Shown here one piece after another: positions 28,943-29,752 of a stretch of DNA of 36,691 nt. Each line of letters opens with the position of its first letter. The first letter of the stretch is position 1. The notes under the pieces were generated by a model. The model had not been told where the DNA came from. It was given only the letters and a program-made list of their open reading frames with translations, and searched no databases. Position numbers and translations under genes: made by a program. The DNA lies in the IMG/VR virus record IMGVR_UViG_2718218358_000002, one strand, 5' to 3'. Origin of the DNA: a virus (taxonomy: Duplodnaviria > Heunggongvirae > Uroviricota > Caudoviricetes).

Positions 28943-29752
28943 TCACTTAATTATTGGATAACTCACACAAGTATGACCGTTGCTTATCGCATACATTTGG
29001 TTTCCCTTAAGATTTACAAATGGAAATGTCGTATACTCATAATTTATAGAGGTCATATTAAATGTAAGGAATTTATCTTCAAGTTCTAATTTTGTAGAGT
29101 GGGCAGGGTATGTTCCTTCATTTTTCATTGTGATAATAAAACCGATAGGAAAAAAATGTAAAGCACAAATAAATGCCACATGTCCTTCGTTCATAAATGC
29201 TACACTTTGAGCGGATATGTGCATTCTGTGTGGGTAAAACCAGTAGTAAATATCATGAGTTTCCTCAAAACTTGAATTTTTACCCAAAACATAATCCTTT
29301 AAAGGTGTATAGAAGGGGCTATCTACGGGTTCTTTTTTACAATCTTCAACTGAAGTTGCTGATAGCACGTGCCCAATCATAGCCTTAGTGAAAGATATGC
29401 TATCAAAAGGTATTCTAATGAATGGATATACATTCATACCATTCATATATCGACTTAACTGTTCTTTAAAGGACTTTGTTACATTTTCAATTGCAACATC
29501 GAGCCCACCTAATACCTTATTGTTACAGTGGCTGCAAATGGTTCTGAAATAAGAGCCATTTTTAGCATTTAATGGTTTAACTGGTTCCTGAATACCAAAA
29601 AATTCGCTAACTGTTTTCTGCAAAACAGGGCCTAAGGTTATGGCGCACTTTGGAGGAACATGATCTTTTGTGAGCAAGCCATATTTCCCACAAATATTGC
29701 AATAACCTTCAGTAATGCCATTGTGCTTCCATCGTTCACTAATTTTCGTCAT
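28943..29752 (-). CDS. HNH-motif nuclease-domain protein with about 190-aa C-terminal domain of unknown function, 269 aa
   Basis: N-terminal CNICGKYGLLTKDHVPPK ... CSHCNNK matches the HNH zinc-finger pattern (CxxC, DH, CxxC-N-x-K); very AT-rich; convergent with the two upstream cargo genes. Confidence 0.6.
   Translation of the reverse strand: MTKISERWKHNGITEGYCNICGKYGLLTKDHVPPKCAITLGPVLQKTVSEFFGIQEPVKPLNAKNGSYFRTICSHCNNKVLGGLDVAIENVTKSFKEQLSRYMNGMNVYPFIRIPFDSISFTKAMIGHVLSATSVEDCKKEPVDSPFYTPLKDYVLGKNSSFEETHDIYYWFYPHRMHISAQSVAFMNEGHVAFICALHFFPIGFIITMKNEGTYPAHSTKLELEDKFLTFNMTSINYEYTTFPFVNLKGNQMYAISNGHTCVSYPIIK

What the first reader, a model, noticed from the sequence alone, without database searches (positions are those of the whole stretch)
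28943..29752. Convergent HNH-motif protein with an uncharacterised C-terminal domain
The 269-aa minus-strand product starts with a recognisable HNH zinc-finger pattern (CNICG...DHVPPK...CSHCNNK) and continues into about 190 aa with no motif I recognise. It is the most AT-rich gene in the window. It could be a free-standing homing endonuclease or a defence nuclease; the long C-domain and antisense orientation within a hotspot favour the second.
Basis: partly seen in the sequence, partly recalled or inferred. Interest (0 to 1): 0.65.

Follow-up and report, generated by a model that had tools for sequence, protein, structure and literature searches.

The report
Mobile prophage HNH-like nuclease gene
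This is a real, intact gene for a zinc-stabilised HNH-type nuclease fused to a domain of unknown fold; it moves as a 1-kb cassette between prophages and resistance plasmids and is most likely an untested single-gene anti-phage defence.

Summary
ORF 28943-29752(-) encodes 269 aa with C18xxC21...D30-H31-VPPK...C73xxC76-N77, at 34.9% GC. It lies between tail genes G and FI of a P2-like prophage, the Z/fun cargo hotspot.

The rest of the protein matches nothing in Pfam, NCBIfam, PADLOC or the PDB, although the model is confident (pLDDT 92).

The identical gene occurs in P2-like and lambdoid prophages and on IncF plasmids. Relatives occur as an integron cassette, as inovirus cargo and in defence islands, never with a conserved partner gene. 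This argues against homing and for a stand-alone defence nuclease. That role is inferred, not shown.

I could not test identity with the validated Vibrio cassettes Sirona and Nemetona.

Side finding: cargo in this hotspot is bounded by two 9-6-9 palindromes that P2-like and lambdoid phages share. Their arms split between backbone and cargo exactly at the spacer, which suggests site-specific cassette exchange.

The parts
28943..29752 (-). Coding sequence of the 269-aa HNH-like protein (identical to WP_000161640.1)
   Evidence: ORF list. Annotated as a hypothetical protein in strain S10, with 100% DNA identity.
29483..29710 (-). Residues 15-90: split beta-beta-alpha-metal (HNH / EndoVII-type) motif. 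It comprises zinc knuckle C18xxC21, D30-H31 at the end of strand 24-31, an insertion at about residues 37-63, and strand 68-73 leading into helix 74-103, which carries C73xxC76-N77 and D85.
28946..29440 (-). Residues 105-269: alpha/beta region of unknown fold with invariant G127-H128, W171, P202 and P244. In the model it packs with the N-terminal part into one globule.
29760..29764 (-). Shine-Dalgarno sequence GAGGG, 7 nt upstream of the ATG
   Evidence: Read directly from the sequence.
29753..29872 (-). A+T-rich upstream region that travels with the gene. It presumably holds the gene's own promoter; no strict sigma-70 consensus was found.
   Evidence: It is part of the 1,042-nt block shared at 99.4-99.5% with lambdoid prophages. 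The promoter scan found nothing convincing here.
28865..28888 (.). Bookend palindrome HpA (GTCTGCTTT-GTGCCA-ACAGCGGAC), 55 nt beyond the stop codon. It marks the 3' boundary of the gene cassette.
29873..29896 (.). Bookend palindrome HpB (GTCTGCTTT-TCGCTC-AAAGCAGAC). It marks the 5' (promoter-side) boundary of the gene cassette.
28856..29897 (.). Minimal mobile module: HpA, the gene, its upstream region and HpB. It is shared at 99.4-99.5% with lambdoid prophages, and an overlapping block is shared with IncF plasmids.
   Evidence: blastn of the window against L099, L100 and L002.
25192..25215 (.). Second HpA-type site (GTCCGCTCT-GTGCCA-AGAGCAGAC) directly after gene G. Together with the site at 28865 it brackets the BCCT + DUF2254 cassette (25216-28864) inserted next to the HNH-like cassette.

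Best explanation
The gene encodes a stand-alone, zinc-stabilised beta-beta-alpha-metal nuclease of the HNH / endonuclease VII / Hpy99I type.

Proposed catalytic residues:
- D30-H31 supplies the general base.
- N77, and probably D85, hold the catalytic metal.
- C18, C21, C73 and C76 hold a structural zinc.

The motif is built into a single globular protein together with about 165 residues of unknown fold. That part probably supplies target recognition or keeps the nuclease in check.

The gene is not a phage structural or replication gene. It is a 1-kb AT-rich cargo cassette with its own upstream region, read against the late operon, and so presumably expressed in the lysogen.

The most likely role is a single-gene defence: cutting the DNA of infecting phages or other incoming elements. 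This would benefit whichever prophage, plasmid or integron carries it.

What is shown: the gene is intact, the motif is conserved, the fold resembles HNH weakly, the cassette is mobile, there is no partner gene, and relatives lie in defence-rich neighbourhoods.

What is inferred: nuclease activity, expression from the prophage, a defence phenotype, and the way self DNA is spared.
For: HNH character:
- Invariant C18, C21, H31, C73, C76 and N77, and near-invariant D30 and D85, across 42 relatives at 23% mean column identity.
- HNH_5 is the only recurrent Pfam family: 19 of 28 and 28 of 42 members, best E=2.3e-6, with Endonuclease_7 and HNH next.
- Both halves of the HNH_5 profile match separately. 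Removing residues ~37-63 gives one continuous match, E=3.8e-5.
- The N-terminal profile's two best PDB hits are Hpy99I and Geobacter HNH, though at E=0.45 and 0.83.

Cargo and defence character:
- The gene lies in the P2 Z/fun hotspot.
- It is alone in that hotspot in phage pro147 and in the PEC1012 prophage.
- The identical gene is in 141 of 5,426 complete E. coli genomes, at 120 chromosomal and 29 plasmid places, and in 60 PLSDB plasmids.
- It is also in lambdoid prophages between the DUF977 and hokD/DUF968 genes.
- Relatives occur as inovirus cargo next to DUF2726, as a Vibrio integron cassette, and in a Plesiomonas island with Shedu SduA_C, HEPN_AbiU2 and PLD/NgoFVII genes.
- No conserved neighbour was found in 88 loci.
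- ORFs within 2.5 kb of relatives in 80 species genomes include AbiTii, AbiD, short-pAgo partners, PD-T4-2, dGTPase, HerA and IetA.
- Other cargo between the same bookends is named by NCBI GIY-YIG nuclease, Apea-like HEPN, DUF4209, FRG and S1 peptidase.
- The same prophage carries PADLOC candidate HEC-04 in its other hotspot.
Against: - There is no PADLOC model hit.
- Nobody is known to have tested this protein. Its accession was not found in any searched paper or in the held part of the DefensePredictor supplements.
- The neighbourhood test had no genome-wide background. ORFs 5-8 kb away were as rich in defence hits as those nearby. It therefore shows 'in defence islands', not a gradient.
- An orphan nuclease with no methylase, antitoxin or recognisable sensor domain leaves self-sparing unexplained.
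- In this window it sits beside a BCCT transporter and a DUF2254 membrane protein, which are not defence genes.
Confidence: 0.55

Rival explanations
1. Modification-dependent (type IV-like) restriction enzyme. The HNH module cuts DNA, and the unknown domain reads a phage-specific base modification (for example hmC or glucosyl-hmC), which would explain why no methylase is needed. This is a specific version of the defence reading.
For: It is an orphan HNH-type nuclease with no adjacent methyltransferase in any context. The architecture is single-chain nuclease plus an extra domain, as in McrA-type enzymes (my knowledge of that family). Type IV enzymes occur in the same neighbourhoods.
Confidence: 0.15
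2. Free-standing HNH homing endonuclease. It would cut phage genomes that lack it near its insertion point and spread by repair.
For: It has an HNH motif. It is a presence/absence polymorphism between two conserved phage genes, G and FI.
Against: - The identical gene lies at unrelated sites: P2 G/FI, lambdoid DUF977/DUF968 and IncF plasmids. Relatives lie beside P2 gene D, beside a terminase, in inovirus cargo, in an integron cassette and in recombinase islets.
- Its junctions are the same two palindromes that bound unrelated cargo, so it need not drive its own mobility.
- It is antisense to the late operon.
- No NUMOD, IENR or HTH DNA-binding module was found.
Confidence: 0.07
3. Addiction or stabilisation toxin, or a weapon against competing plasmids and bacteria. 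The nuclease would help keep the carrier element, or would attack rival elements rather than phages.
For: It is carried on 60 plasmids, 44 of them conjugative, next to relBE and pemIK modules. It spreads across element types at 99-100% identity.
Against: The 1,042-nt module has no room for a protein antitoxin or immunity gene. There is no conserved neighbour. The sequence shows no obvious hydrophobic or secretion segment. No known RNA family was found in 25100-30100.
Confidence: 0.12
4. Non-catalytic zinc-ribbon protein: a DNA-binding regulator, an anti-defence protein or a structural 'metal-binding protein', as the database names suggest.
For: All HNH evidence is below threshold. Sources name it 'metal-binding protein' or 'chaperonin'.
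Against: The residues that would be dispensable in a mere zinc ribbon (D30, H31, N77, D85) are invariant or nearly so across a very divergent family. One distant plasmid relative is annotated as an HNH endonuclease.
Confidence: 0.08
5. Cassette-mobility nuclease. As an EndoVII-like enzyme it would cut the HpA/HpB palindromes (possibly as cruciforms) and so move the cassettes of this hotspot.
For: There is weak structural similarity to T4 endonuclease VII. The gene is flanked by palindromes.
Against: 72 of 79 IMG/VR loci found through the palindrome pattern lack the gene. Family members outside enterobacteria are not flanked by these palindromes. The hybrid sites fold poorly.
Confidence: 0.03

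Closest known systems
HNH / His-Me finger nucleases of the CxxC...DH...CxxCN type (Pfam HNH_5 PF14279, Endonuclease_7 PF02945; T4 endonuclease VII, Hpy99I, Geobacter HNH 4H9D)
   Different: A ~25-residue insertion containing two strands and a short helix splits the motif. Every score is below the curated cut-off. The motif is embedded in a 269-aa globule whose remaining part has no known relative.
Sirona and Nemetona: single-gene anti-phage integron cassettes of Vibrio cholerae N16961 (Darracq et al., bioRxiv 10.1101/2024.07.02.601686)
   Same: [quoted passage not shown] Sirona is reported in 34 genera. The family studied here also occurs as a Vibrio integron cassette. It is widespread in Gammaproteobacteria, and its best PDB profile hit is the type II enzyme Hpy99I.
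   Different: The paper also reports similarity to lambda NinG (PF05766), which none of 70 scanned family members showed at E of 1 or better. The V. cholerae relative found here comes from non-N16961 isolates and is seen on few contigs.
Other cargo of the P2 Z/fun hotspot: P2 fun(Z), and three systems found there by Vassallo et al. 2022
   Same: It occupies the same position between G and FI. Like fun(Z) in P2, it is read against the late genes. It is non-essential lysogenic-conversion cargo.
   Different: It has no sequence relation to fun(Z), which is 528 aa. It hits no PADLOC model, and PADLOC includes the PD-T4, PD-T7 and PD-lambda systems.
Type IV HNH restriction enzymes (McrA-type)
   Same: Both are an orphan HNH nuclease plus an additional domain on one chain, with no methylase.
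   Different: No recognisable modified-base reader fold was found, and there is no sequence similarity outside the HNH motif.
Free-standing phage HNH homing endonucleases (I-HmuI-like, T4 Mob proteins)
   Same: Both are HNH genes lying between conserved phage genes.
   Different: This gene occupies many unrelated insertion contexts, has no NUMOD or HTH modules, is antisense, and has boundaries shared with unrelated cargo.

Membership tests
HNH / His-Me finger (beta-beta-alpha-metal) nuclease superfamily | Beta-hairpin followed by an alpha-helix that together form the metal finger | tested here: met
HNH / His-Me finger (beta-beta-alpha-metal) nuclease superfamily | General-base His, usually preceded by Asp or Glu, at the end of the first strand | tested here: met
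   H31 is invariant. D30 is at least 90% conserved, with E or N in the exceptions.
HNH / His-Me finger (beta-beta-alpha-metal) nuclease superfamily | Metal-ligand Asn or His on the helix | tested here: met
   N77, directly after C76, is invariant. D85 is invariant or nearly so. The pattern CxxCNxxLGxxxD matches EndoVII and Hpy99I.
HNH / His-Me finger (beta-beta-alpha-metal) nuclease superfamily | Metal-dependent nuclease activity | not testable with these tools
   This needs purified protein and H31A / N77A controls.
Pfam HNH_5 (PF14279) | Score at or above the gathering threshold (27.5 bits) | tested here: not met
   11.6 bits (E=0.29) for the native protein, and 24.0 bits (E=3.8e-5) with the insertion removed. 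The best relative reaches E=2.3e-6.
Anti-phage defence gene | Location in defence hotspots or islands of mobile elements | tested here: met
   It lies in the P2 Z/fun hotspot. PADLOC hits occur among neighbours of relatives. Sister cassettes are nuclease and HEPN genes.
Anti-phage defence gene | Match to a known or candidate defence model | tested here: not met
   PADLOC v2 gave 0 families for the protein and nothing consistent for 42 relatives. DefenseFinder is not available here.
Anti-phage defence gene | Confers phage resistance when expressed | not testable with these tools
   No report was found for WP_000161640, WP_000192157 or AKH49325.
Free-standing homing endonuclease | Tied to one cognate insertion or cleavage site in a conserved gene region | tested here: not met
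   At least five unrelated contexts were found for identical or related copies.
Free-standing homing endonuclease | Accessory DNA-binding modules (NUMOD, IENR, HTH) | tested here: not met
   No such Pfam hits in 70 family members.
Type IV modification-dependent restriction enzyme | Recognisable modified-base reader domain (SRA, PUA-like, winged helix and similar) | tested here: not met
   The whole-protein model has no PDB fold match. A new kind of reader is not excluded.
Type II restriction-modification system | Cognate methyltransferase encoded alongside | tested here: not met
   There is no conserved neighbour in 88 loci, and the gene is alone in the hotspot in pro147 and PEC1012.
Sirona / Nemetona integron defence cassettes | Sequence homology to the N16961 proteins | not testable with these tools
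   The sequences are not in the held text or supplements.
Sirona / Nemetona integron defence cassettes | Single-gene Vibrio integron cassette with distant His-Me similarity | tested here: met
   V. cholerae relative P0052 lies on a 969-bp contig bounded by attC/VCR ends. For the HNH evidence see the rows above.
Sirona / Nemetona integron defence cassettes | Reported similarity to lambda NinG (PF05766) | tested here: not met
   PF05766 is absent from the hits at E of 1 or better for 28 + 42 members. The paper used HHpred, so this is weak evidence.

The most novel reading that the evidence does not exclude
The gene may be one interchangeable cargo of a previously undescribed cassette-exchange system, in addition to being an unrecognised defence nuclease with a new fold.

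The system would work as follows:
- Two 9-6-9 palindromes share the same arms but have different 6-bp spacers: HpA with GTGCCA and HpB with TCGCTC.
- They bracket the cargo hotspot of both P2-like phages (between G and FI) and lambdoid phages (between DUF977 and hokD/DUF968).
- They would act as heterospecific core sites for a still unidentified recombinase.
- Single-gene defence cassettes would then be swapped between unrelated phages and onto plasmids, much as in engineered recombinase-mediated cassette exchange.
Probability: 0.3. Interest if true: 0.8.

Novelty: new variant of a known kind. Interest (0 to 1): 0.55.

Why it matters
The family is large: at least 1,828 clusters at 50% identity, spread over many phyla. 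It has no Pfam, NCBIfam or PADLOC model, is mis-named 'chaperonin' in databases, and has a confidently predicted structure with no solved relative.

It sits at 100% identity in 2.6% of complete E. coli genomes and on conjugative resistance plasmids. One example is next to qnrS1.

If it is a defence nuclease, three things follow:
- It adds a compact 269-aa single-gene system to the catalogue.
- It may affect phage therapy host range in clinical E. coli, Klebsiella and Shigella.
- It offers a small HNH enzyme with a new recognition or control domain.

The bookend palindromes may also help explain how phage defence hotspots swap their contents. A 2026 survey of P2 and P4 hotspots says those recombination processes 'still need to be elucidated'.

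Tried and rejected
Searches that found nothing:
- The AFDB library was not available.
- A full-length profile against PDB sequences returned only a chance hit to dethiobiotin synthetase.
- PADLOC and NCBIfam found nothing.
- Literature look-ups by accession found nothing.
- Rfam found no RNA family in 25100-30100.
- The sigma-70 scan gave no convincing promoter upstream of the gene, and no more promoter-like sites than shuffled sequence.

Sirona / Nemetona: I could not obtain their sequences or locus tags from the preprint, its held supplement or citing papers.

Fusion hints: the longer relatives (P0142, P0172, P0145) only have low-complexity N-terminal extensions, which are probably mis-called starts.

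Near-versus-far neighbourhood test: both sets were rich in defence genes, so it gave no gradient. The tool lists only the top 25 families, so exact counts were impossible.

Readings of the palindromes that I rejected:
- attC sites: there is no GTTRRRY box.
- dif/cer sites: the arms are unrelated (comparison from my own knowledge of those sequences).
- Plain terminators: they lack a T-run, and the hybrid sites fold weakly.

Nilsson et al. 2004 (Mol Biol Evol 21:1) may already discuss recombination sites at P2 cargo regions. It could not be read.

Full report
**What is at the coordinates.** The minus-strand ORF 28943-29752 is real: ATG start, 269 codons. A GAGGG ribosome-binding site lies 7 nt upstream, and the N-terminus is conserved in relatives. 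It is 34.9% GC in a 50.8% GC window. That makes it the most AT-rich gene by a narrow margin over the unknown ORF at 18941-19984, which is 35.3%.

The window is a P2-like prophage of E. coli, identical to one in strain S10 that is integrated between yegS and yegQ. The ORF lies between tail fibre assembly gene G (24615-25142) and tail sheath gene FI (30089-31279). In phage P2 this position holds the lysogenic-conversion gene fun(Z), which is also read against the late genes. Vassallo et al. 2022 describe it as a second defence-enriched locus of P2-like phages.

**Is it an HNH protein?** The motif reads C18xxC21-G ... D30-H31-V-P-P-K ... C73xxC76-N77-N-K. Sequence databases do not recognise it:
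- There is no significant Pfam, NCBIfam or PADLOC hit. The only strong match is PHROG 21495, of unknown function.
- Pfam HNH_5 scores only E=0.29 and covers only the first third of the profile.

Five independent lines nevertheless agree.

1. HNH_5 is the one Pfam family that recurs across relatives. It hits 19 of 28 close members and 28 of 42 diverse members, best E=2.3e-6. Endonuclease_7 and HNH are the next most frequent.
2. Different members match either the first or the second half of the HNH_5 profile. When I removed residues ~37-63 in silico, the two halves joined into one match to profile positions 1-43 of 56. This scored E=3.8e-5 and 24.0 bits, still under the 27.5-bit cut-off. I tried three splice points.
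3. A profile of the N-terminal 105 residues has Hpy99I (3FC3) and the Geobacter HNH endonuclease (4H9D) as its two best hits among 177,635 PDB sequences. These hits are not significant (E=0.45 and 0.83), but they align the CxxCG..DH and CxxCNxxLGxxxD motifs.
5. Across 42 relatives with 23% mean column identity, the four cysteines, H31 and N77 are invariant, and D30 and D85 nearly so.

I conclude that it is a zinc-stabilised beta-beta-alpha-metal nuclease of the EndoVII / Hpy99I flavour, with a ~25-residue insertion that hides it from profile searches. Membership of the superfamily is likely. Membership of Pfam HNH_5 by its own criterion is not met.

**The family.** A profile search of 1.84 billion representatives found 1,828 clusters at E of 0.001 or better, and 377 at 1e-30 or better. 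Almost all are about 270 aa and match full-length. They occur in Gammaproteobacteria and Betaproteobacteria, Cyanobacteria, Nitrospirota, Bacillota, Planctomycetota, Bacteroidota and others. Sources name them 'chaperonin', 'metal-binding protein' or hypothetical. One distant plasmid copy is called an HNH endonuclease.

**Context: mobile, solitary cargo.**
- In phage pro147 and the PEC1012 prophage, the gene (95% identical) is the only occupant of the G/FI hotspot.
- The identical gene is present in 141 of 5,426 complete E. coli genomes, at 120 chromosomal and 29 plasmid places.
- It is on 60 PLSDB plasmids of E. coli, Klebsiella and Shigella, 44 of them conjugative.
- Many chromosomal copies are in lambdoid prophages, between the replication-region gene DUF977 and hokD/DUF968/RusA, again antisense.
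- More distant relatives lie in varied settings:
  - at the end of a Vibrio inovirus prophage, beside a DUF2726 gene;
  - in a recombinase-bounded islet in Pseudomonas;
  - beside P2 gene D in Serratia;
  - beside the terminase of an Enterobacter prophage;
  - in a Plesiomonas island with Shedu, HEPN_AbiU2 and PLD/NgoFVII genes;
  - in V. cholerae, as a single integron cassette on a 969-bp contig bounded by attC ends.
- Clustering of flanking ORFs from 88 loci found no conserved partner. The commonest neighbour is a small serine recombinase, in 10 loci.
- ORFs flanking relatives in 80 species genomes include many PADLOC defence proteins:
  - within 2.5 kb: AbiTii, AbiD, pAgo partners, PD-T4-2, dGTPase, HerA and IetA;
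  - at 5-8 kb: MADS, RM, DpdF, PifA and PD-T4-5.
- There was no genome-wide background control for that neighbourhood test.

**Weighing the readings.** Homing is unlikely, because the same gene occupies unrelated sites and its junctions are those of unrelated cargo (see the side finding). A type II restriction system is excluded by the lack of a methylase. A degenerate zinc ribbon is unlikely given the invariant catalytic residues.

The best-supported reading is a stand-alone defence nuclease carried as a lysogenic-conversion cassette (confidence 0.55). How it spares host DNA is unknown. A modification-dependent (type IV-like) mode and an infection-triggered abortive mode are both open. No known reader fold was detected.

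The closest functional precedents are Sirona and Nemetona. These are single-gene V. cholerae integron cassettes, validated against phages and described as distant His-Me finger nucleases. I could not obtain their sequences. Whether this family is the same as either one is the main uncertainty about novelty; I estimate the chance at about 30%.

**Side finding: bookend palindromes.**

*The pattern.* Comparing the window with pro147, PEC1012, lambdoid prophages and an IncFII qnrS1 plasmid shows that every breakpoint falls in a 24-nt palindrome:
- HpA = GTCYGCTYT-GTGCCA-ARAGCRGAC
- HpB = GTCTGCTTT-TCGCTC-AAAGCRGAC

The arms are the same and the 6-bp spacers differ. The order is always backbone, HpA, cargo, HpB, backbone. 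This holds in P2-like phages (G ... FI) and in lambdoid phages (DUF977 ... hokD/DUF968).

Of 79 of these examined, 72 lack the HNH-like gene.

*Arms and spacers.* Over the tabulated sites:
- The backbone-side arm is strictly backbone-specific. For HpA it is GTCCGCTCT in P2 (14 of 14) and GTCCGCTTT in lambdoid phages (36 of 36). For HpB it is AAAGCAGAC in P2 (9 of 9) and AAAGCGGAC in lambdoid phages (18 of 18).
- The spacers never vary.
- The cargo-side arm travels with the cargo. The same cargo plus arm is found in both kinds of phage.

*Other cargo.* Between the same bookends, NCBI names the proteins GIY-YIG nuclease, Apea-like HEPN protein, DUF4209, FRG-domain protein, S1 peptidase and a NUDIX + HAD pair. 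There are also three hypothetical proteins.

*In this window.* The 3.65-kb BCCT + DUF2254 block sits between two HpA sites whose arms are swapped relative to the single site of PEC1012. The plasmid copy ends right after the HpB spacer, 44 nt before a 200-aa 'site-specific integrase' gene.

*Interpretation.* The hybrid sites fold poorly as hairpins. This argues for a double-stranded protein-binding site rather than a terminator. Canonical P2 keeps only a degenerate HpB.

The crossovers are confined to the spacer, and the two sites are heterospecific. That is what site-specific cassette exchange would leave behind. Homologous or copy-choice recombination at short shared palindromes is not excluded, and no recombinase was identified. 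Nilsson et al. 2004 may bear on this but could not be read.

**Verdict.**
- Observation: confirmed.
- Interpretation: partly supported. The HNH assignment is likely and defence is plausible, but neither has been demonstrated.
- Novelty: a new variant of a known kind, namely an HNH nuclease defence cassette with an insertion-split motif and an unmatched fold. It would be downgraded if it proves to be Sirona or Nemetona.
- Interest: 0.55.

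Noticed in passing
window 25192-25215, 28865-28888, 29873-29896; also L003, L004, L099-L118, L154-L232: Two 9-6-9 palindromes bracket the cargo of both the P2 G/FI hotspot and the lambdoid DUF977/DUF968 hotspot: HpA with spacer GTGCCA and HpB with spacer TCGCTC. The backbone-side arms are backbone-specific (50 of 50 for HpA, 27 of 27 for HpB). The spacers are invariant. The cargo-side arms move with the cargo. This is the pattern expected from site-specific cassette exchange between unrelated phages and plasmids.
   Followed up: partly
window 25216-28864: A BCCT-family transporter (25458-27461) and a DUF2254 membrane protein (27510-28802) form a separate 3.65-kb cassette inserted at HpA. 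The arms of the two flanking HpA sites are swapped relative to the single site in PEC1012. The same pair lies behind HpA in lambdoid prophages (L160, L174, L179, L186, L203). Together with the HNH-like gene it is also on IncFII plasmids at 99.9% identity.
   Followed up: partly
L002 9150-9840 (plasmid NZ_CP020517.1): The plasmid copy of the block ends immediately after the HpB spacer (...GTCTGCTTTTCGCTCA|TAAGGGAC...). A 200-aa 'site-specific integrase' gene (WP_001752951.1) starts 44 nt later. It is a candidate recombinase, or a relic of one, for these sites.
   Followed up: no
window 29839-29905: This 67-nt stretch contains HpB. It is absent from pro147 and PEC1012 and is flanked by the direct repeat GATAGTGTTT / GATAGCGTTT. 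In the P2 context the palindrome extends to 14-bp arms (TGACAGTCTGCTTT...AAAGCAGACTGTCA) and folds at -14.5 kcal/mol, z = -5.
   Followed up: partly
window 7813-9285 (+): A 490-aa AAA_21 / OLD-like ATPase lies in the other P2 hotspot, between replication gene A and portal gene Q. It matches PADLOC candidate system HEC-04 over its full length (E=2.9e-225) and is 38% GC.
   Followed up: partly
window 18941-19984 (-): A 347-aa antisense ORF of 35.3% GC lies between virion morphogenesis and baseplate gene V. It has no Pfam or PADLOC hit and is annotated as hypothetical. It is a third AT-rich cargo insertion in this prophage.
   Followed up: partly
window 1255-1632 (+): A 125-aa ORF of 37.8% GC lies between host gene yegS and the prophage integrase. 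It has no Pfam or PADLOC hit and may be cargo between the att site and int.
   Followed up: no
L018 (V. cholerae contig, 969 bp): A 45%-identical relative forms a complete integron cassette. The contig starts with ..GGGCGTTAT and ends with a ~125-nt VCR-like attC finishing ..GGGCGTTA. Copies more than 90% identical occur in V. parahaemolyticus, V. vulnificus and V. alginolyticus.
   Followed up: partly
L007, L025, L026, L033, L038, L040, L045, L053, L055, L057: In 10 of 88 loci from Pseudomonas, Serratia, Edaphovirga, Alishewanella, Ralstonia and a Geobacteraceae MAG, a ~208-aa serine recombinase (resolvase type) lies next to the family member. This suggests another small mobile unit.
   Followed up: no
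window 29965-29985 (+): A strong intrinsic terminator (AGGCGGGCGAATTGCCCGCCT + TTTTCTGT) lies just upstream of the FI late promoter region. It is conserved in P2 itself and presumably insulates the late operon from transcription out of the hotspot.
   Followed up: no
L013 / L014 (Photobacterium angustum): The relative sits at the edge of an island that encodes three large proteins in a row (531, 620 and 660 aa, the first with a faint integrase hit), followed by an SMC/AAA_23 ATPase and an HATPase_c protein. From memory this resembles a GMT-type mobile island with defence cargo.
   Followed up: no
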